IMG/VR virus record: IMGVR_UViG_2529292759_000002
Coordinates: 1 to 40,408 of that record
From: a virus
Taxonomy: Duplodnaviria > Heunggongvirae > Uroviricota > Caudoviricetes
Length of the DNA stretch: 40,408 nucleotides
Strand: one strand, 5' to 3'
The translations under genes and the position numbers were made by a program. Positions 1-40,408 of this stretch are shown here, one piece after another; within the stretch, counting starts at the first letter, position 1; every line of letters starts with the position of its first letter. The notes under the pieces are model-generated. The model saw nothing but the letters and a program-made list of their open reading frames with translations. It did not search any database and was not told the DNA's origin.

Positions 1-45
1 ATTGAGTGGGAATGATTAACAGCTAACTCATAGCAACTCATTCCT
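1..45. repeat. attL: attL: left copy of the 45-bp direct repeat bounding the prophage
   Basis: Bases 1-45 (ATTGAGTGGGAATGATTAACAGCTAACTCATAGCAACTCATTCCT) recur exactly at 40364-40408; integrase gene lies adjacent. Confidence 0.85.
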
Positions 46-140: not shown

Positions 141-180
141 GGTGACGGTATTACCTTAAAGGTATACTCTCATACCGTCA
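141..180. promoter_or_regulatory. Integrase-proximal regulatory region: GGTGACGGTAT arm-like repeat plus a 15-bp palindrome (TTACCTTAAAGGTAT, 151-165)
   Basis: GGTGACGGTAT at 141-151 recurs at 40282-40292 near attR; TGACGGTA/TACCGTCA inverted repeat flanks the palindrome; 43 bp upstream of the int start. Confidence 0.45.
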
Positions 181-5702: not shown

Positions 5703-5855
5703 TCAGCCCTCCCATATCTCGTTATCGTTGGCTACATCGCGAGCTTCTTTGCTGACGAAAGCCCACTTAATGCCTTCCTGTAAGGTGCGGAACTTCCAGC
5801 TCATGAATCCGCATGCAGTAACGCAGTACCAACCGTTGATGATTTTCCACTGCAT
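5703..5855 (-). CDS. Small ORF, first gene of the leftward early operon (about 50 aa)
   Basis: Not in the ORF track (<60 aa); ATG at 5855 with GAGGT Shine-Dalgarno 6-10 nt upstream; stop abuts the next start. Confidence 0.4.
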   Translation of the reverse strand: MQWKIINGWYCVTACGFMSWKFRTLQEGIKWAFVSKEARDVANDNEIWEG

Positions 5856-5874
5856 AACTTGTTACCTCGGTCTG

Positions 5875-5951
5875 TTACCGTTGAGGTAATAATTATGCTT
5901 ATTTGGTTTGGTGTCAATAGATATGAGTTAAAAAAATTACCCGCAAGGTAA
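5875..5951 (-). promoter_or_regulatory. OL-like region: two 15-bp palindromes (TTACCGTTGAGGTAA 5875-5889; TTACCCGCAAGGTAA 5937-5951) flanking a candidate leftward promoter
   Basis: Palindromes 62 bp apart; minus-strand TTGACA at about 5922-5927 with a TAATTA/ATAATT -10 candidate about 16 bp downstream. Confidence 0.55.
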
Positions 5952-5960
5952 TCTATCTGG

Positions 5961-5986
5961 CAATAAAAAAGCCGCCATGAGGCGGC
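5961..5986 (-). terminator. Intrinsic terminator downstream of the repressor gene
   Basis: Minus-strand GCCGCC-TCAT-GGCGGC hairpin followed by TTTTTTATT. Confidence 0.7.
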
Positions 5987-6008
5987 TTACTTACTGAAAA
6001 CTATAGTT

Positions 6009-6593
6009 TTATTGTTTGTTTTTTTCGTTCTGGTTGATGACAAATTCAATGTAACTTTCGATCTTTGCTTTCTCGGTTTCGGGTAACAATGCGTAGCGTG
6101 AGCGGTCATAGTTGATAGTCGCAGGGTCGTGCGGGTGAATCAGTAGTTCATATCCGTGACGCCCGAATGCGGATGCAACATTCTCCAGGGTGGAAATGGA
6201 AACGCTGACCTCATTGTTTAACAGGCGGCTGATTGTCACCTGGGCGACGCCGGATGCGCGGTGAAGTTTTCCCTGTGTTGAAAGGTCGCGGCTTTCGCTC
6301 ATCCAGCGTTCCAGGTTGTGAGCCGCCAGCTGACCTATATCGCTCGGGCCGACAGGCTGAAAACCCTCCTGAGAAAGCGAACGATCAATATCAAGCCAGT
6401 TACGGGGTTTATTGGCGGCAGCTTCAATTTTTCGTGCAACCTGGTCGCCGATAACCTTCTTGCCAAGAGCCCAGCGGTTTACCAGATTTGCCTGAGTTCC
6501 AAGTTTTTCTGCCATCCGCGTCTGAACACCATTGAATTCACGGTCGATCAAGTCGTTGAGATTTTGCCTGCGGACGTCCTGGATACTTTTCAT
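6009..6593 (-). CDS. Prophage repressor candidate: tandem HTH (XRE-like) protein with no recognisable S24 autopeptidase domain
   Basis: 194 aa; two HTH-like segments (QTRMAEKLGTQANLVNRWALG and ASGVAQVTISRLLNNEV); divergent from the Cro-like gene with operator-like palindromes between; no GxSM...K signature. Confidence 0.7.
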   Translation of the reverse strand: MKSIQDVRRQNLNDLIDREFNGVQTRMAEKLGTQANLVNRWALGKKVIGDQVARKIEAAANKPRNWLDIDRSLSQEGFQPVGPSDIGQLAAHNLERWMSESRDLSTQGKLHRASGVAQVTISRLLNNEVSVSISTLENVASAFGRHGYELLIHPHDPATINYDRSRYALLPETEKAKIESYIEFVINQNEKNKQ

Positions 6594-6648
6594 TTTCTGG
6601 AAAATCGCCTCATATATGAATCAGTAGATGATTCAATTTAAAGCAATA

Positions 6649-6711
6649 TTACCCAACAGGTAAATGCACCTCATAGGTAACTATCCTTGATTTTTGTTAC
6701 CTTATGGGTGA
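6649..6711. promoter_or_regulatory. OR-like region: three 15-bp palindromic sites between the repressor and Cro-like genes
   Basis: TTACCCAACAGGTAA (6649-6663), GCACCTCATAGGTAA (6666-6680), TTACCTTATGGGTGA (6697-6711); triple arrangement resembles a lambdoid OR. Confidence 0.6.
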
Positions 6712-6747
6712 ATATTTATTATCTGAAATAAATATCAGGCAATAGCT

Positions 6748-6978
6748 ATGAGCGATAACGGACATTTCGATTTCAAAAAGCACTGGCTTGCACTTACTCC
6801 GGATGAGCGTGAAGCCTTCGCACAGGAAGCCGGAACGACGAGTCACTATATCCAGACTCACTTAACAGGTAAGCGCAAAATGCCAGGTAAAGTATTGATG
6901 AATGGGCTTTTTAAAGCCTGTAAAACAAGACAATGGTTGCGCTCAAAAGCAGAACTGGCATACTTCTTCTACTCATGA
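6748..6978 (+). CDS. Cro-like small DNA-binding protein
   Basis: 76 aa, basic; divergent from the repressor across the operator region; AGCTATG start context. Confidence 0.55.
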   Translation: MSDNGHFDFKKHWLALTPDEREAFAQEAGTTSHYIQTHLTGKRKMPGKVLMNGLFKACKTRQWLRSKAELAYFFYS

Positions 6979-7000
6979 TATCCAGCTACACCCCTCTGTA

Positions 7001-7024
7001 GACCGCCACCCGGCGGTCTTTTCA
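7001..7024 (+). terminator. Intrinsic terminator after the Cro-like gene
   Basis: GACCGCC-ACC-CGGCGGTC hairpin followed by TTTTCAT. Confidence 0.5.
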
Positions 7025-7033
7025 TATCTATTC

Positions 7034-7048
7034 GCACCTTAAAGGTAA
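7034..7048. promoter_or_regulatory. 15-bp palindromic site (GCACCTTAAAGGTAA) upstream of the replication operon
   Basis: Same left-half variant (GCACC) as the middle OR site; about 80 bp upstream of the 7129 start. Confidence 0.45.
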
Positions 7049-7128
7049 TAAAAAACCAAATATGGTTGATCTTTTTTTTGTGTCAGCACAAAATAACCGT
7101 AATCCCAATACTAATAACAGGGCTTACC

Positions 7129-7329
7129 ATGGAAATCATTACACGTATTGATGCCGCAAAGCGCGGACTTAAACGCTACTACACCGGAAAACCATGTAAG
7201 CACGGACATGACAGTGAACGCTGGGTTTACAACGGACACTGTGTTGAGTGCACCATGGAATCAAACCGTCGCATCAGGGCAGAGATTAAGCAGATCATGA
7301 TTAATTCCTCCCCACAACACTCAAGCTGA
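7129..7329 (+). CDS. Small Cys/His-rich protein in the cII-equivalent position
   Basis: 66 aa from the internal ATG at 7129; C-x-H-x-H ... C-x2-C pattern (CKHGHDSERWVYNGHCVEC); lies between the Cro-like gene and the O-like gene. Confidence 0.5.
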   Translation: MEIITRIDAAKRGLKRYYTGKPCKHGHDSERWVYNGHCVECTMESNRRIRAEIKQIMINSSPQHSS

Positions 7330-7344
7330 TAGCGGAGATTAATC

Positions 7345-8136
7345 ATGAGCAGACATGCAACAGATTGGGCCTGGGAGACAGATCCAGGTAGCTCGTCATT
7401 AAAGCTCATACTGCTCTCGATGGCTGACAGAGCCGATGAATATAACCTCTGCTACCCCAGCATAGAACGCCTCGTTAAAGACACTTGCCTGAATAAAAAA
7501 ACCGTGCAGGCCGGACTTATATCGCTCATGAAAATGGGGCTTATTTCAGATACCGGGGAGAGAAAGGGAGCGACAAAAAGAGTGCGGGTTTTCTCTCTTA
7601 ATATAACCAAAAACGGGAACATTAAAGGCAACCGAGAGGGGGGCAATGAACCCGAAAACGGTAATGTTACCGAAAACGGGAATATACCCAAAAACGGGAT
7701 GTTGAATGATCCCAAAAACGGGATCCAGAACCAGTCATATAACCAGTCATTTAACCAAGAGAGGGAGAGCAGGACAAAAAACGGGGATTCTGTGCATCAT
7801 GACCCCGGCGCAAACAACGCCGTGATGAATAACTTTGTTCCTCCTAGTGGGCCAGGGCAATTAGGCAAATTTGTCATGCATGAACAATGGCAGCCATCAG
7901 ATGACTTTCTTCGGAAAAGCTCATTGCAGGGGATCTACCTGGACAGTCTGCCAACGGCACAGGAACTTGCAGAGTTCAGAATTTACTGGATGGCTGAGGG
8001 TAAGGCATACCATCAGGCACAGTGGGAGCAGAAGCTGGCAAGGCGGCTGCAGATTAGCAGACAGAAGCAATCAACATTACCTGATAACAACGTTCCGCAC
8101 TGGAACAGCCCTGAAGCATGGGAGGATTTCTTGTGA
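7345..8136 (+). CDS. Replication initiator (O-like) with an internal iteron-encoded linker
   Basis: 263 aa; N-terminal winged-helix-like region; central repeated KNGN/ENGN peptide encoded by the DNA iterons; directly upstream of the P homologue. Confidence 0.65.
   Translation: MSRHATDWAWETDPGSSSLKLILLSMADRADEYNLCYPSIERLVKDTCLNKKTVQAGLISLMKMGLISDTGERKGATKRVRVFSLNITKNGNIKGNREGGNEPENGNVTENGNIPKNGMLNDPKNGIQNQSYNQSFNQERESRTKNGDSVHHDPGANNAVMNNFVPPSGPGQLGKFVMHEQWQPSDDFLRKSSLQGIYLDSLPTAQELAEFRIYWMAEGKAYHQAQWEQKLARRLQISRQKQSTLPDNNVPHWNSPEAWEDFL
7607..7724. repeat. Iteron array (candidate origin of replication) inside the O-like gene
   Basis: Five copies of CC(A/G)AAAACGG(G/T)A(A/T) starting near 7607, 7652, 7670, 7688 and 7712 (three at 18-bp spacing), followed by an AACCAGTCAT direct repeat. 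Confidence 0.65.
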
Positions 8137-8918
8137 ACAACGTTTTTACCGCGATACAAAACCGTGACGGAGAAGCCCTTTCTCGCATGTCAGGTTATGA
8201 GCATCAGTACACCAACAATGACAACGTGGTGAACATGTCAGCAGAGAGGCTTGTTGATGCCCTTTTCAAACAGCTGAAACAACTGTTTCCGGCGGCAGTG
8301 GTAACCAACCTGAAGACGCCAGAGCAGGAAGTTGCTGCAAAACAGCAGTGGATTGCTGCGTTTGCCGAAGGGGGGATCCGAACCCGTGAACAGGTTTCTG
8401 CTGGTATGCGCCACGCCCGCGCCAGTGAGTCTCCGTTCTGGCCGTCGCCAGGGCAATTCATCAAGTGGTGTAAAGACAGCAAGATGGTTCTTGGCGTCAC
8501 CATTGACGATGTGATGGCGGAGTTTCACCGGTACAGCAAGGAAAAAAGTTTATATCCTGGTGGTCCCGAAAGATTCCCGTGGCGACATCCGGTTATGTAC
8601 TGGGTCGTATGTGATACCCGCCGTGCAATGTATCAGCGCCAGCTTAGCGAGATTGAGGTTGAGAAACACGCGCGCAGGCTGCTCGATGATTGGGCGAAAA
8701 AGGTGGCTTCCGGACAGCAGATACCCGATCCGGTGATCAGCATACAGGCAAAGCCAGAACCCATGAGTACACCTCCGGACACAGGGAGAGACGTTTACCA
8801 TCCACCAGGGCGAAGTTTCGGGTGCATGCCTAACGCCGCCACCCTTGGGGGAATAACACCGGCGCAGTGGCTGATGGAGGAATACAGGCGGGGAAAGGCG
8901 GCAGGATTTATCAAGTAA
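8118..8918 (+). CDS. Replication protein P homologue (helicase loader)
   Basis: 266 aa; QWIAAFAEGGIRTREQVSAGMRHARASESPFWPSPGQFIKWC closely parallels recalled lambda P (QWVLAFRENGITTMEQVNAGMRVARRQNRPFLPSPGQFVAWC). Confidence 0.85.
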   Translation: MGGFLVNNVFTAIQNRDGEALSRMSGYEHQYTNNDNVVNMSAERLVDALFKQLKQLFPAAVVTNLKTPEQEVAAKQQWIAAFAEGGIRTREQVSAGMRHARASESPFWPSPGQFIKWCKDSKMVLGVTIDDVMAEFHRYSKEKSLYPGGPERFPWRHPVMYWVVCDTRRAMYQRQLSEIEVEKHARRLLDDWAKKVASGQQIPDPVISIQAKPEPMSTPPDTGRDVYHPPGRSFGCMPNAATLGGITPAQWLMEEYRRGKAAGFIK

Positions 8919-8922
8919 TACC

Positions 8923-8946
8923 AGCGCGATAGCGCATTTTTTTACG
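8923..8946 (+). terminator. Weak intrinsic terminator after the P homologue
   Basis: Short GCGC-GATA-GCGC stem followed by ATTTTTTT. Confidence 0.35.
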
Positions 8947-8955
8947 TCTCGATGA

Positions 8956-9031
8956 TTACCTACTGGGTAATAAAATATTCTAAAATCTATTGATTTAGTG
9001 TCTTATGTGGTTTTTAATTACCTCGGGGGTA
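8956..9031. promoter_or_regulatory. Pair of 15-bp palindromes (TTACCTACTGGGTAA 8956-8970; TTACCTCGGGGGTAA 9017-9031) upstream of the 9036 operon
   Basis: Two perfect sites 61 bp apart; the second overlaps the ribosome-binding region of the 9036 gene. Confidence 0.55.
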
Positions 9032-9035
9032 AATC

Positions 9036-9380
9036 ATGAGAAAACAGATACAGGCTCTTGGTCGACTCAAAACAGGCCAGATGAACAAAACAGAATCTGC
9101 GTATTGCCAGCACCTTGAGCAGCGTAAACGTGCAGGGGAAATCGCCTGGTATCGGTTCGAGGGTATCAAGCTGCGGTTAGCTGATAACACGTTTTATACG
9201 CCAGATTCCGCTGTGATGCTCGCCACCGGCGAGATGGAACTGCACGAAGTGAAAGGTTTCTGGACCGACGACGCCAGGGTGAAAACCAAAGTCGCCGCAG
9301 ATCAGTATCCGTTCCGAATCATCGGGGTAACGGTTAAGCCAAAGAAAGCAGGTGGTGGCTGGAACATCGAAGAGTTCTGA
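9036..9380 (+). CDS. Hypothetical phage protein (possibly DUF1064-like)
   Basis: 114 aa; family assignment from memory only. Confidence 0.5.
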   Translation: MRKQIQALGRLKTGQMNKTESAYCQHLEQRKRAGEIAWYRFEGIKLRLADNTFYTPDSAVMLATGEMELHEVKGFWTDDARVKTKVAADQYPFRIIGVTVKPKKAGGGWNIEEF

Positions 9381-11850: not shown

Positions 11851-12124
11851 CCTGCAACTTGCCGTTAAAGGTGAATACTTCGATGCCATGATTCGCGGAG
11901 AGAAAACGGAAGAGTATCGCCTGTGTAATGACTACTGGAATAAGCGAATTATGTTCCGGGAGTATGACCGCCTGATTATCACAAAGGGATATCCGAAGCG
12001 CGACGATTCCAGCCGTAGAATTGATGTTCCGTATGACGGATATGAAATAAAGACAATCACACATCCCCACTTCGGCGATAAACCGGTAAAGGTGTACGCG
12101 ATAAAGGTGAATATTGATGGCTAA
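11843..12124 (+). CDS. Hypothetical small protein (possibly ASCH/PUA-like fold)
   Basis: 93 aa; overlaps both neighbours, consistent with an operon. Confidence 0.45.
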   Translation: MANLQLAVKGEYFDAMIRGEKTEEYRLCNDYWNKRIMFREYDRLIITKGYPKRDDSSRRIDVPYDGYEIKTITHPHFGDKPVKVYAIKVNIDG

Positions 12125-12455
12125 ATCAGCAGCAGAGCGCAAAGCCGCTCAGAGAGCCAGACAAGCTGCATCTGGTGTGCGTAAGCTGGAAATTGTGCTT
12201 GATGCTCAGGAAATTGAAATGCTGGAGCGTAACTGTGCCACGCGTCGCCCCGGGCGTGCGCCTTACGAATTTGGTGAGTATATAGCGTTACTGATCCGCC
12301 AGGATGATGCACGCGTGCGCGGGCGTATAAAATCGATCAGCAAAAAATGTTGCGGTAAGTGCGGCGAGAGAGTTCCAGTTAATTCATGCCCGTGTAATGG
12401 TGACTCGCAATGCTGGGTGACTAAAGGCTGGCATGAAACGAAATTAATAGTGTGA
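12114..12455 (+). CDS. Cys-rich small protein immediately upstream of a terminator and the terminase genes; candidate late-gene regulator
   Basis: 113 aa; basic N-terminus; C-terminal cluster KKCCGKCGERVPVNSCPCNGDSQC; position analogous to a Q-type regulator (inference). Confidence 0.45.
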   Translation: MMAKSAAERKAAQRARQAASGVRKLEIVLDAQEIEMLERNCATRRPGRAPYEFGEYIALLIRQDDARVRGRIKSISKKCCGKCGERVPVNSCPCNGDSQCWVTKGWHETKLIV

Positions 12456-12504: not shown

Positions 12505-12530
12505 GCCGCCAACTATGGCGGCTTTATTTT
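12505..12530 (+). terminator. Strong intrinsic terminator between the early block and the terminase genes
   Basis: GCCGCC-AACTAT-GGCGGC hairpin followed by TTTATTTT. Confidence 0.7.
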
Positions 12531-14639: not shown

Positions 14640-15488
14640 TTACTTTTGTGTTTTTGATTTTCTTTGATAGGTGGAATTTAAATCACCATTTATATTTACT
14701 AGAGGATTATTCAATAATGTACTGATTTCTGGATTGTTAATTCCAGTAACGCCAAGTTTCTTTACGGACTCATTAAAGTCTTGTAATGATTTTAGACCTA
14801 CAAGCCCATTAGCAATTGTATTATTTGTTGCCAAAGGAATGTTTTTCTTATAGGACTCATATTCGTTTTTTAAATTTTTGTGAGTTTTTTCTAGATTTTC
14901 TAGTTTAGATGTTGTTTCATCAATAACCTTAGATAATTCTAAAATACGAGCTTGTGCTGCGCGCAGTTCTGTCTCCCTCTCTTTCAATTCAGATGTGAGT
15001 TGTCCCATTCTGTCTTTTGAAAGAATTATTTCCTCTTTCATGTCTTGAATGTTTTTTTCAGCGCCTGTTTTTACTTTTTCGTAAGTAATGTCTTTTTTAG
15101 CCAGCAATCTCTGTAGCCGTGTTTCACGTTGTATTTTTCTTGCCTTCCGGTGGTTTTCGATTGAGTCATTATTATCAAGAGGTTTTGCTTGCCATACGTT
15201 AATGATATTGTTTACCCATGGTAATAGGCAGCAGATAGTAATTACAGATAAGCATGGATAAAACATAACAGTTTTCCATGTGCTGTTATCTGAGATGTAT
15301 GAAATTTTATCTATTATATTTGATTTGCTAAAAAACAGATAAAGAAGTGATTTCCAGTTGAAGGCGCACCAGGACATAACAAAAGCACCAAGCACAGGGT
15401 TTTTAGCTCGATGCACGGCAGTATTGGCAGTAGATAAAAACAGCTCTTTGAACGATTCGAACATACTAATTACCTTAAAGTTTTTCAT
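14640..15488 (-). CDS. AT-rich moron: unknown protein with two N-terminal hydrophobic segments and a long coiled-coil region
   Basis: Reverse strand between the terminase and portal genes; markedly AT-rich; start at MKNFKV (15488) or an internal Met at 15464; coiled-coil-like segment ETRLQRLLAKK...ELRAAQARILELSKVIDETTSKLENLEKTHKNLKNE. Confidence 0.6.
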   Translation of the reverse strand: MKNFKVISMFESFKELFLSTANTAVHRAKNPVLGAFVMSWCAFNWKSLLYLFFSKSNIIDKISYISDNSTWKTVMFYPCLSVITICCLLPWVNNIINVWQAKPLDNNDSIENHRKARKIQRETRLQRLLAKKDITYEKVKTGAEKNIQDMKEEIILSKDRMGQLTSELKERETELRAAQARILELSKVIDETTSKLENLEKTHKNLKNEYESYKKNIPLATNNTIANGLVGLKSLQDFNESVKKLGVTGINNPEISTLLNNPLVNINGDLNSTYQRKSKTQK

Positions 15489-15507
15489 GATTATACCTTT
15501 AAGGTAA
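15470..15507. promoter_or_regulatory. Palindromic site (ATACCTTTAAGGTAA 15493-15507) plus half-site (TTACC 15470-15474) at the moron start; a TATAAT hexamer overlaps
   Basis: Minus strand reads TTACCTTAAAGGTATAATCATG; a second ATTACCTTAAAG copy lies 25 bp downstream in the transcript. Confidence 0.5.
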
Positions 15508-15521
15508 TTTGTGGTCATCAG

Positions 15522-34925: not shown

Positions 34926-35029
34926 TATCTATTCGTATTTACAGCCTTTCTATCCATATGTGGTTTTCCAGGTAATAGAATAACCAGATATGCGGCGCAA
35001 CGGGTGCTGCGACTATCTGGAGATTTAAC

Positions 35030-40363: not shown

Positions 40364-40408
40364 ATTGAGTGGGAATGATTAACAGCTAACTCATAGCAAC
40401 TCATTCCT
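40364..40408. repeat. attR: attR: right copy of the 45-bp direct repeat
   Basis: Identical to bases 1-45. Confidence 0.85.

What the first reader, a model, noticed from the sequence alone, without database searches (positions are those of the whole stretch)
7001..7329. Zinc-finger-like small protein in the cII-equivalent position, insulated from the Cro-like gene by a terminator and its own palindromic site
In lambdoid phages cII lies between cro and O. Here that slot is occupied by a 66-aa Cys/His-cluster protein unlike lambda CII, preceded by a terminator (7001-7024) and a GCACC-type palindrome (7034-7048). The Cro-like gene is therefore effectively monocistronic and the replication operon has separate control.
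Basis: inference. Interest (0 to 1): 0.45.

Follow-up and report, generated by a model that had tools for sequence, protein, structure and literature searches.

The report
Small zinc protein heading replication operon
The 66-residue gene is a real, conserved zinc-binding protein of a common E. coli prophage; it is a nuclease-free copy of the DNA-binding repeat of phage homing endonucleases rather than a lambda CII relative, it seems to have its own repressor-controlled promoter behind a terminator, and its function is still unknown.

Summary
The window is a complete phiV10/epsilon15-type (Uetakevirus) prophage. ORF 7129-7329 is PhiV10p42 / epsilon15 gp40 (PHROG 1081) and is under strong purifying selection.

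The protein has one invariant zinc site (C23-x3-H27-x10-C38-x2-C41) followed by a basic helix. The same module occurs in 2-5 tandem copies in thousands of proteins, many ending in HNH or GIY-YIG nuclease domains. It matches no CII, Ogr or other Pfam family.

The hairpin at 7000-7019 plus TTTC is the best terminator-like site in the region and is already annotated in phiV10. The palindrome at 7034-7048 belongs to a TTACC-N5-GGTAA family of 16 sites, 14 of them intergenic. That consensus is annotated as repressor-binding in epsilon15, and the repressor here is a homologue of SPC32H Rep.

Terminator, operator and a conserved TTGATC-17-CAAAAT promoter-like pair align in register with two other cassettes, at PL and after gene P. 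This supports a separate, repressor-controlled promoter for the zinc gene and the replication genes.

The "CII-equivalent" label is positional only. My best guess is an early DNA-binding accessory protein or regulator that travels with the replication module. This is a solid annotation of modest novelty.

The parts
6009..6593 (-). Prophage repressor (Rep), 194 aa, two HTH domains
   Evidence: phmmer E 1.9e-41 over the full length to the Salmonella phage SPC32H repressor, PDB 5d50. Pfam HTH_3. The identical protein in phage ZX5 blocks lytic growth when over-expressed (PMC9782041).
6748..6978 (+). Cro-like 76-aa HTH gene, first gene rightward of the operator region
   Evidence: phrog_35 'transcriptional repressor', E 5.6e-13. 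Corresponds to PhiV10p41 / epsilon15 gp39.
7000..7023 (+). Intrinsic-terminator-like hairpin (stem 7000-7007/7012-7019, loop ACCC, tail TTTC)
   Evidence: 8 pairs, 6 G-C. Annotated in phiV10. The stem is kept and the loop varies in relatives; the U tract is absent in the epsilon15, SPN1S and Kp4865-1 branch.
7034..7048 (.). Repressor-operator-like palindrome GCACC-TTAAA-GGTAA (upstream operator of cassette P2)
   Evidence: 13 of 15 matches to TTACC-N5-GGTAA, and the same variant arm as the OR site at 6666-6680. Lies 32 nt upstream of the -35, in register with the upstream operators of PL and P3 at 34 nt. Arms are invariant and the centre varies in 80 prophage copies.
7054..7067 (.). Second palindrome AACC-AAATAT-GGTT overlapping the -35
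   Evidence: The CCAwATnnGGTTGATC block is conserved in 8 of 9 relatives. The central base varies in prophage copies. Its binding partner is unknown.
7066..7094 (+). Promoter-like pair P2: -35 TTGATC (7066-7071), 17-nt spacer, -10 CAAAAT (7089-7094)
   Evidence: TTGATC is identical in 8 of 9 relatives (TTGATA in Pantoea) and AAAAT in 9 of 9, with a variable spacer of 16-17 nt. It matches 8 of 12 consensus positions, so the scan did not call it. Same register as PL and P3.
7094..7108 (.). Degenerate downstream operator position (only the half-site TAACC at 7094-7098)
   Evidence: PL and P3 carry a full operator 28 nt from the -35 start; P2 has TAACCGTAATCCCAA there. TTACC or TAACC at this place in 5 of the 9 genomes compared (window, phiV10, epsilon15, Kp4865-1, SPN1S).
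7129..7329 (+). 66-aa zinc-module protein gene (stop included); SD AGGG at 7119-7122
   Evidence: phrog_1081 E 7.7e-43. dN/dS 0.02-0.25. AlphaFold2 pLDDT 89.9. Conserved CHCC ligands.
7345..8136 (+). Replication initiator (HTH_36 plus DnaT domain) with internal iteron-like repeats
   Evidence: Pfam and PHROG hits. An 18-bp repeat array at 7650-7699.
8118..8918 (+). Lambda P-like helicase loader, last gene of the unit, followed by a terminator and cassette P3
   Evidence: PF06992 E 1.5e-56. A terminator after the gene is annotated in phiV10. Cassette P3 is shown.

Best explanation
The gene at 7129-7329 encodes a small basic protein with a single treble-clef-like zinc knuckle (Cys23, His27, Cys38, Cys41) followed by a long Arg/Lys-rich helix. 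It is a free-standing, nuclease-free copy of the modular repeat that phage HNH, endonuclease-VII-type and GIY-YIG homing endonucleases carry in arrays of 2-5, presumably as their DNA-recognition arm.

In this phiV10-type prophage it is the first cistron of the replication transcription unit (zinc gene, DnaT-type initiator, P-like loader). That unit starts at its own weak sigma-70 promoter, TTGATC-17-CAAAAT. The promoter lies just behind the terminator of the Cro-like gene.

The palindrome at 7034-7048 is an operator for the tetrameric Rep repressor. It sits about 60 bp upstream of the presumed transcription start, exactly as in the PL and post-P cassettes. In a lysogen, replication genes and transcription across the iteron origin would therefore be shut off by Rep independently of PR.

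Shown: gene reality, zinc-site conservation, domain relationships, operator-family membership by sequence, cassette register, and conservation of the promoter hexamers.

Inferred: zinc binding, DNA binding, promoter activity, Rep occupancy, and the protein's role. I take that role to be sequence-specific DNA binding as an early accessory factor or regulator linked to the replication module, not CII-like activation of repressor synthesis.
For: Gene and family:
- 98-100% identical copies occur in phiV10, PAS61 and other phages, and in 512 of 5426 complete E. coli genomes.
- The order Rep / cro-like / gap / zinc gene / replication genes is also kept in Citrobacter and Pantoea prophages.
- Nonsynonymous difference pN is 0.05-0.16 while synonymous sites are saturated; epsilon15 versus SPN1S gives dN/dS 0.13.

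Domain:
- A profile search gave 16,352 cluster representatives at E<=1e-3, and the top hits carry 2-5 copies.
- C-terminal HNH domains are seen. Fold matches in BFVD include endonuclease VII, a group I intron endonuclease and HNH proteins.
- The ligands are 99-100% conserved and positions 43-55 are R/K-rich.
- The model is confident, with the knuckle between strands 16-18 and 30-32 and the CxxC at the start of helix 39-60.

Regulation:
- Terminator.
- Operator family: 10 perfect and 6 near-perfect sites, 14 of 16 fully intergenic in a genome about 92% coding.
- The epsilon15 record annotates ATTACC-N5-GGTAAT sites as repressor-binding.
- Rep is a homologue of SPC32H Rep, a tetramer that binds palindromic sites and has a looping-type tetramerisation domain (PMC9638917; PMC9986798).
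- The -35 and -10 hexamers are conserved in nine phages while the spacer varies.
- PL, P2 and P3 align in register: upstream operator 34, 32 and 34 nt before the -35, and downstream operator 28 nt after its start.

Module linkage:
- Homology with TL-2011b and ZX5 ends at window 7071, inside the -35.
- TL-2011b has Rep 98% and Cro 100% identical but the zinc protein only 62% and the initiator 44%. The Citrobacter prophage has Rep 43% but the zinc protein 71% and the initiator 78%.
Against: - There is no experimental datum on this protein or any relative. There is no PDB relative by sequence or fold, so DNA binding rests on architecture and charge only.
- The promoter matches only 8 of 12 consensus positions, and its downstream operator is reduced to a half-site. 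Rep control of P2 may therefore be weak or indirect.
- The conserved block could serve another purpose, such as a recombination junction or the site of another protein.
- The terminator's U tract is short here and missing in the epsilon15 branch, so read-through from PR may supply much of the transcription.
- The zinc gene is found with at least three different initiator types, which argues against an initiator-specific partnership.
Confidence: 0.55

Rival explanations
1. Functional CII analogue. The zinc protein is made early and activates a leftward establishment promoter for Rep and/or the integrase promoter, setting lysogenisation frequency.
For: The slot matches lambda cII. The protein is small, basic and probably binds DNA. 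A leftward promoter-like match, CTGACA-16-CATATT at 7086-7059, overlaps the conserved palindrome.
Against: It matches no CII family. The module's home is homing endonucleases, and it also occurs in virulent Nonagvirus phages and between terminase genes. The -35 of the leftward match falls in the non-conserved spacer. The gene segregates with the replication module, not the immunity module.
Confidence: 0.12
2. Autoregulator or second switch protein. The zinc protein binds the AACC-N6-GGTT palindrome over its own -35, and the related wTATnTGGTT motifs found in other repressor-controlled promoter regions, tuning early transcription.
For: The palindrome at 7054-7067 is conserved with a variable centre. 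Seven of 11 wTATnTGGTT copies lie within 70 bp of an operator centre, against a zone fraction of 4.3%.
Against: I defined the motif after seeing the sites, so the P value is inflated. Its position and orientation relative to the promoter differ between cassettes. The Cro-like protein is an equally good candidate ligand. The Pantoea prophage lacks the palindrome but keeps the gene.
Confidence: 0.15
3. Decayed remnant of a homing endonuclease gene with no present function, kept only because it lies between two needed elements.
For: It is a single module with no nuclease domain, and the family is dominated by mobile nuclease genes.
Against: Purifying selection is strong while synonymous sites are saturated. 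The reading frame, start codon and SD are intact across genus-level divergence and several host genera.
Confidence: 0.05
4. No separate promoter. The hairpin is a weak, tR1-like attenuator, and the zinc and replication genes are expressed by read-through from PR. The conserved block after it would be a repressor roadblock or looping site only.
For: The U tract is short and is absent in the epsilon15 branch. The promoter is below the scan threshold. Rep is a looping-type tetramer, and scattered operators could act as roadblocks.
Against: Two hexamers are conserved at 16-17 nt spacing across nine phages, including Pantoea whose flanks differ. The cassette is in register with PL and P3, whose -35/-10 pairs are better matches. 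I found no N-like or Q-like antiterminator among the early genes scanned.
Confidence: 0.2

Closest known systems
PhiV10p42 / epsilon15 gp40 / SPN1S_0045 (PHROG 1081, function unknown)
   Same: Orthologues. The phiV10 protein is 98.5% identical (one substitution, P22Q) and the epsilon15 and SPN1S proteins 52-54%. They occupy the same slot between the Cro-like gene and the replication genes.
   Different: Nothing material. All are annotated as hypothetical proteins and no function has been published in the papers I could search.
N-terminal zinc repeats of phage HNH / 'endonuclease VII' (PHROG 1035) and GIY-YIG homing endonucleases
   Same: The same module: GLKRY[FY]TGxPCxxGHxxxR...CxxC followed by a basic helix.
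   Different: Here there is one copy and no nuclease domain, it is fixed at a conserved regulatory position in a temperate phage, and it is under purifying selection.
Lambda CII (and P22 C1)
   Same: Same map position between cro and the replication genes, and downstream of a terminator (my knowledge of the lambda map).
   Different: No sequence or fold relationship. CII is an HTH tetramer, whereas this is a zinc module. No TTGC-N6-TTGC-type target was found. The gene is linked to the replication module.
Lambda tR1 / nutR region
   Same: A terminator directly after cro, ahead of the replication operon.
   Different: No N-like antiterminator or nut-type RNA was found. Instead a conserved promoter-like pair and repressor operator follow the terminator.
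SPC32H Rep / epsilon15 repressor operators; scattered-operator systems such as P1 C1 and mycobacteriophage L5 'stoperators' (the last two from my own knowledge)
   Same: Many copies of one operator consensus are spread over intergenic regions of the whole genome, and Rep is a homologue.
   Different: The site at 7034-7048 is not annotated in the epsilon15 or phiV10 records. The sites are symmetric, and in PL and P3 they come in pairs 62 bp apart around promoters, unlike the asymmetric L5 sites.
P2 Ogr / P4 Delta and TraR/DksA small zinc-finger phage regulators
   Same: About 70-aa phage zinc proteins that act on transcription.
   Different: No match to their Pfam families. The ligand pattern differs: C-x3-H-x10-C-x2-C here, against four cysteines in those families.

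Membership tests
PHROG 1081 / homing-endonuclease-associated zinc module | Full-length profile match | tested here: met
   E 7.7e-43, residues 1-66 on profile positions 1-66 of 67.
PHROG 1081 / homing-endonuclease-associated zinc module | Conserved C-x3-H-x10-C-x2-C ligands and the GxxRY[FY]TG motif | tested here: met
   C23, H27, C38 and C41 are present, and they are 99-100% conserved in 392 module copies.
PHROG 1081 / homing-endonuclease-associated zinc module | Zinc binding and DNA binding | not testable with these tools
   These are inferred only from the AlphaFold2 knuckle-plus-helix geometry and the basic helix.
HNH / His-Me finger homing endonuclease | Catalytic beta-beta-alpha-metal nuclease domain | tested here: not met
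   No HNH or Endonuclease_7 Pfam hit. The weak phrog_1035 hit covers only residues 3-52, the module itself. The protein ends 25 residues after the CxxC.
Lambda CII family | Sequence homology to Phage_CII and an HTH fold | tested here: not met
   No Pfam hit at E<=0.1. The model has a zinc knuckle and a single long helix, not an HTH.
Lambda CII family | Activates leftward establishment and int promoters | not testable with these tools
   No conserved leftward promoter was found. This needs genetics.
Ogr/Delta and TraR/DksA zinc-finger regulators | Profile match with a Cys4 pattern | tested here: not met
   No hit in Pfam or NCBIfam.
Intrinsic (rho-independent) terminator | G+C-rich hairpin followed by a U tract | tested here: met
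   8-bp stem with 6 G-C pairs, a 4-nt loop and tail UUUUCAUAUCU. The U tract is short and its efficiency is unknown.
Rep (SPC32H/epsilon15-type) operator | TTACC-N5-GGTAA palindrome in an intergenic, promoter-proximal position | tested here: met
   13 of 15 matches, the same variant as the OR site at 6666, and in register with the upstream operators of PL and P3.
Rep (SPC32H/epsilon15-type) operator | Bound by Rep | not testable with these tools
   The primary SPC32H and epsilon15 papers are not in the library.
Sigma-70 promoter | -35 and -10 hexamers at 16-18 nt spacing | tested here: inconclusive
   8 of 12 matches, below the scan threshold. Both hexamers are conserved in nine phages while the spacer varies.

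The most novel reading that the evidence does not exclude
A homing-endonuclease DNA-recognition repeat has been domesticated as a stand-alone transcription or replication factor. On this reading the 66-aa zinc protein binds the conserved AACC-N6-GGTT palindrome at its own promoter and the TGGTT-type motifs in the other repressor-controlled cassettes. It would then act as a third component of the Uetakevirus lysis-lysogeny/replication switch, and would define a new family of phage DNA-binding regulators.
Probability: 0.12. Interest if true: 0.6.

Novelty: new member of a known kind. Interest (0 to 1): 0.3.

Why it matters
This prophage type is in about 9% of complete E. coli genomes, and its relatives include phiV10, epsilon15 and SPC32H, which are models for O-antigen conversion and antirepressor switches.

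Knowing that the early region is built from repeated terminator-operator-promoter cassettes explains how a repressor can silence replication without lambda-style antitermination. It also explains why the immunity and replication modules can recombine exactly at the promoter.

The zinc module is a very large family, with more than 16,000 clusters at 50% identity, and it has no Pfam entry and no solved structure. A single-copy, nuclease-free member would be a convenient handle for working out what DNA the module recognises. That would also help annotate thousands of homing-endonuclease genes.

Tried and rejected
- Pfam, NCBIfam and PADLOC scans of the 66-aa protein gave nothing useful.
- A PDB sequence profile search gave only noise, E>1.
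- Rfam at E<=1 over 5800-9200 found no known RNA element (nut, put or sRNA) between 6975 and 7135.
- I considered a leftward PRE-like promoter at 7086-7059 and rejected it because its -35 is not conserved.
- By eye, the conserved block does not fit an IHF or DnaA site: the IHF core is mismatched, and the DnaA-box-like TTATCCA is present only in Tyrion and Kp4865-1.
- A DnaG-type CHC2 primase zinc finger was considered because the ligand order is the same, but there is no zf-CHC2 hit.
- The 87-aa ORF from TTG 7066 was rejected.
- I could not test co-variation of the 7034 site with immunity type, because all relatives sampled use the same TTACC-N5-GGTAA consensus.
- The primary papers on epsilon15 (PMC2698709) and SPC32H (PMC3807360, PNAS 2016) are not held in the library. 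I cannot say whether they already describe the site or the promoter.

Full report
**What the window is.**
The 17-bp att core ATTGAGTGGGAATGATT, reported for phiV10, epsilon15 and ZX5 (PMC9782041), occurs at 1-17 and 40364-40380. The window is therefore one complete integrated prophage. Region 6600-7400 is 98-99% identical to Escherichia phages PAS61, phiV10, O157 typing phages 9 and 10, and others of the genus Uetakevirus.

The gene order around the finding is:
- a two-HTH repressor at 6009-6593 on the minus strand;
- a 76-aa Cro-like HTH gene at 6748-6978;
- the 66-aa ORF at 7129-7329;
- a DnaT/HTH_36 replication initiator at 7345-8136;
- a lambda P-like loader at 8118-8918.

The repressor is a full-length homologue of the SPC32H repressor, whose structure is solved (PDB 5d50, E 1.9e-41). 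Secondary sources describe that protein as a tetramer that binds palindromic sites and is taken apart by an antirepressor (PMC9638917). They also describe a p53-like looping-type tetramerisation domain (PMC9986798).

**Check of the observation.**
All three features exist where stated (see the observation check).
- The ORF runs from ATG 7129 to the stop at 7327-7329, with AGGG 6 nt upstream.
- The hairpin at 7000-7019 with tail TTTC is the best terminator-like site in the region. It is already annotated in the phiV10 GenBank record.
- The palindrome at 7034-7048 is real and far from random.

**The protein.**
It matches PHROG 1081 end to end (E 7.7e-43), a family of unknown function. It matches no Pfam, NCBIfam or PADLOC family.

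It is a genuine gene. Orthologues are present in phiV10, Tyrion, Kp4865-1, TL-2011b, epsilon15 and SPN1S, and in Citrobacter and Pantoea prophages, always between the Cro-like gene and the replication genes. Nonsynonymous divergence is low (pN 0.05-0.16 among phiV10-type copies) while synonymous sites are saturated (pS about 0.7). Epsilon15 versus SPN1S gives dN/dS 0.13.

A profile search of 1.84 billion cluster representatives found 16,352 proteins at E<=1e-3. The best-scoring ones carry two to five tandem copies of the module in proteins of 150-540 aa. Some of these end in HNH domains, and they match PHROG 1035 'endonuclease VII'. Structural neighbours among viral models include proteins named recombination endonuclease VII, group I intron endonuclease and HNH nuclease.

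In other phages the module-bearing genes sit in places typical of free-standing homing endonuclease genes. Examples are between the terminase subunits of phiRSP and among the queuosine and polymerase genes of Nonagvirus phages.

Over 392 module copies, C23, H27, C38 and C41 are 99-100% conserved, H25 is not, and positions 43-55 are rich in Arg and Lys. The AlphaFold2 model is confident (pLDDT 89.9). It places C23 and H27 in the turn between two short strands, and C38 and C41 at the start of a long helix (39-60). That is a treble-clef-like arrangement. No solved structure resembles it by sequence or fold.

The protein is therefore best described as a nuclease-free single copy of a homing-endonuclease zinc module, most likely a DNA-binding unit. 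Zinc binding and DNA binding are both inferences.

**The palindrome.**
TTACC-N5-GGTAA occurs perfectly ten times in the window: 5875, 5937, 6649, 8956, 9018, 12542, 16111, 33478, 34531 and 34911. Six near-perfect copies include 6666, 6697 and 7034. No shuffle approaches this number.

Fourteen of the 16 sites are entirely intergenic in a genome that is about 92% coding. The other two lie at the extreme 5' ends of mechanical ORFs.

The epsilon15 GenBank record annotates ATTACC-N5-GGTAAT sites as repressor-binding ('lysogeny'). The 7034 site has the same variant left arm (GCACC) as the middle OR site at 6666. In 80 near-identical prophage copies its arms never change, while its central bases and the hairpin loop do.

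It is therefore one member of the repressor's operator set, not a private site of the small gene. I could not test binding itself, and the primary SPC32H and epsilon15 papers are not in the library.

**A promoter behind the terminator.**
I aligned the stretch from the Cro-like stop codon to the zinc gene's start codon in nine phages and prophages. Their synonymous sites are saturated, yet the alignment shows a series of conserved blocks:
- the hairpin stem, with a variable loop;
- the operator arms, with a variable centre;
- CCAwATnnGGTTGATC;
- a T run;
- AAAAT.

The sequence between TTGATC and CAAAAT varies and is 16-17 nt long. That is the pattern expected of -35 and -10 hexamers. Even the Pantoea prophage, whose flanks differ, keeps TTGATA-17-AAAAAT.

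The pair matches only 8 of 12 consensus positions, so the simple scan did not list it.

The strongest argument is internal. When PL (minus strand), this region (P2) and the region after gene P (P3) are anchored on their -35 hexamers, they align in register. Each reads terminator hairpin and T tract, then an operator starting 34, 32 and 34 nt upstream of the -35, then the -35, a 17-nt spacer, the -10, and an operator starting 28 nt after the start of the -35. In PL and P3 the two operators are 62 bp apart centre to centre, which would suit a tetramer that bridges two sites. P3 is conserved in the same form in epsilon15, SPN1S, Tyrion and the Citrobacter prophage.

P2 differs in that its downstream position holds only a half-site, TAACC at 7094-7098. 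P2 may therefore be less tightly held, or may rely on the upstream site and on looping to OR, 340-385 bp away.

I found no N-like or Q-like antiterminator among the early genes scanned. A different 'transcriptional regulator' (phrog_536) lies at 12114-12455, just before the late genes. Rfam finds no known RNA element in 6975-7135.

**Limits of the insulation claim.**
The U tract is only four residues. In the epsilon15, SPN1S and Kp4865-1 branch the hairpin is kept, but the tail is UCCUUCC-like. Read-through from PR may therefore be substantial, and 'effectively monocistronic' is not established.

**Which module the gene belongs to.**
Megablast homology with TL-2011b, ZX5 and HEMP4 stops at window position 7071, inside the -35.
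- TL-2011b shares Rep (98%) and Cro (100%), but its zinc protein is 62% identical and its initiator 44%.
- The Citrobacter prophage has an epsilon15-type Rep (43%), but its zinc protein is 71% identical and its initiator 78%.

The zinc gene therefore travels with the replication genes, and the recombination joint is the promoter. It is found with several initiator types, and in epsilon15 a cytosine methylase gene lies between it and the initiator. A strictly initiator-specific role is therefore unlikely.

**Interpretation.**
The best-supported picture has three parts. The protein is an early DNA-binding zinc protein. It is expressed as the first cistron of a replication unit that is probably repressor-controlled. 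Transcription of that unit also crosses the iteron-like repeats inside the initiator gene (7650-7699).

The protein's specific task is unknown. I rank the options as follows, with confidences as in the rival-explanation entries:
1. a replication-linked accessory DNA-binding protein;
2. an autoregulator or second switch protein acting on the AACC-N6-GGTT palindrome and TGGTT-type motifs (0.15);
3. a CII-like establishment activator (0.12);
4. an inert remnant (0.05).

The CII reading is weakened by three points: the lack of any homology, the origin and distribution of the domain, and the linkage of the gene to the replication module.

**Novelty and verdict.**
The gene, the terminator and the operator consensus are all already in public records, the gene as 'hypothetical protein'. 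Three points appear to be new annotations rather than a new kind of system. I found them in none of the papers I could search, and I could not read the primary epsilon15 and SPC32H papers.
- The small protein is a domesticated single repeat of a very large, uncurated homing-endonuclease zinc module.
- The 7034 site is an operator in a repeated terminator-operator-promoter cassette.
- The module boundary lies in that promoter.

Interest is modest at 0.3. It would rise if the protein proved to be a sequence-specific regulator of the cassette promoters.

Noticed in passing
window 151, 5875, 5937, 6649, 6666, 6697, 7034, 8956, 9018, 12542, 12560, 15493, 16111, 33478, 34531, 34911: Sixteen copies of the operator consensus TTACC-N5-GGTAA are spread over the whole prophage, 14 of them fully intergenic. 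They lie ahead of the integrase gene, at PL, OR, P2 and P3, directly after the terminator that precedes the late genes (a pair 18 bp apart), and near the tailspike region. This suggests genome-wide, unit-by-unit silencing by Rep rather than control at two promoters only.
   Followed up: partly
window 5875-5988 (minus strand), 7000-7108, 8924-9032: Three cassettes of terminator, operator, -35, -10 and operator align in register. In PL and P3 the two operators are 62 bp apart centre to centre, which fits a tetrameric, looping-type repressor.
   Followed up: partly
window 5899, 7054, 9003, 16168, 34577, 34956, 34982: A second motif, wTATnTGGTT, lies within 70 bp of operator centres in 7 of its 11 occurrences. 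I defined the pattern after seeing the sites, so the binomial P of 8e-8 is inflated. At 34956/34982 it forms an inverted pair, and at 7054-7067 it forms an overlapping palindrome. Its ligand is unknown.
   Followed up: partly
window 7650-7699 (and similar units from about 7600 to 7735): Iteron-like 18-bp repeats (ACCCGAAAACGGGAATAT-type) lie inside the initiator gene. They encode the Asn/Gly-rich repeat of the protein and are probably the replication origin, as in lambda O.
   Followed up: no
window 151-165 and 15493-15507: The two near-operator sites TTACCTTAAAGGTAT and ATACCTTTAAGGTAA are exact reverse complements of each other. One lies ahead of the integrase gene. The other overlaps the -10 of a minus-strand promoter-like site (ATGACC-17-TATAAT) for the 292-aa ORF at 14640-15518.
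   Followed up: no
window 1-17 and 40364-40380: The window begins and ends with the 17-bp att core of phiV10-type phages, so it is a whole prophage with almost no host flank.
   Followed up: yes
window 6748-6978 compared with L004 (epsilon15) and L010 (Citrobacter): The Cro-like protein is 76-77% identical between phages whose repressors are only 43-44% identical, yet all use the same operator consensus. It is unclear whether these phages are heteroimmune.
   Followed up: no
window 12114-12455: A 113-aa 'transcriptional regulator' (phrog_536, E 6e-55) is the last early-right gene. It lies just before the terminator at 12505-12522 and the double operator ahead of the late genes, which makes it a candidate late-gene regulator.
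   Followed up: no
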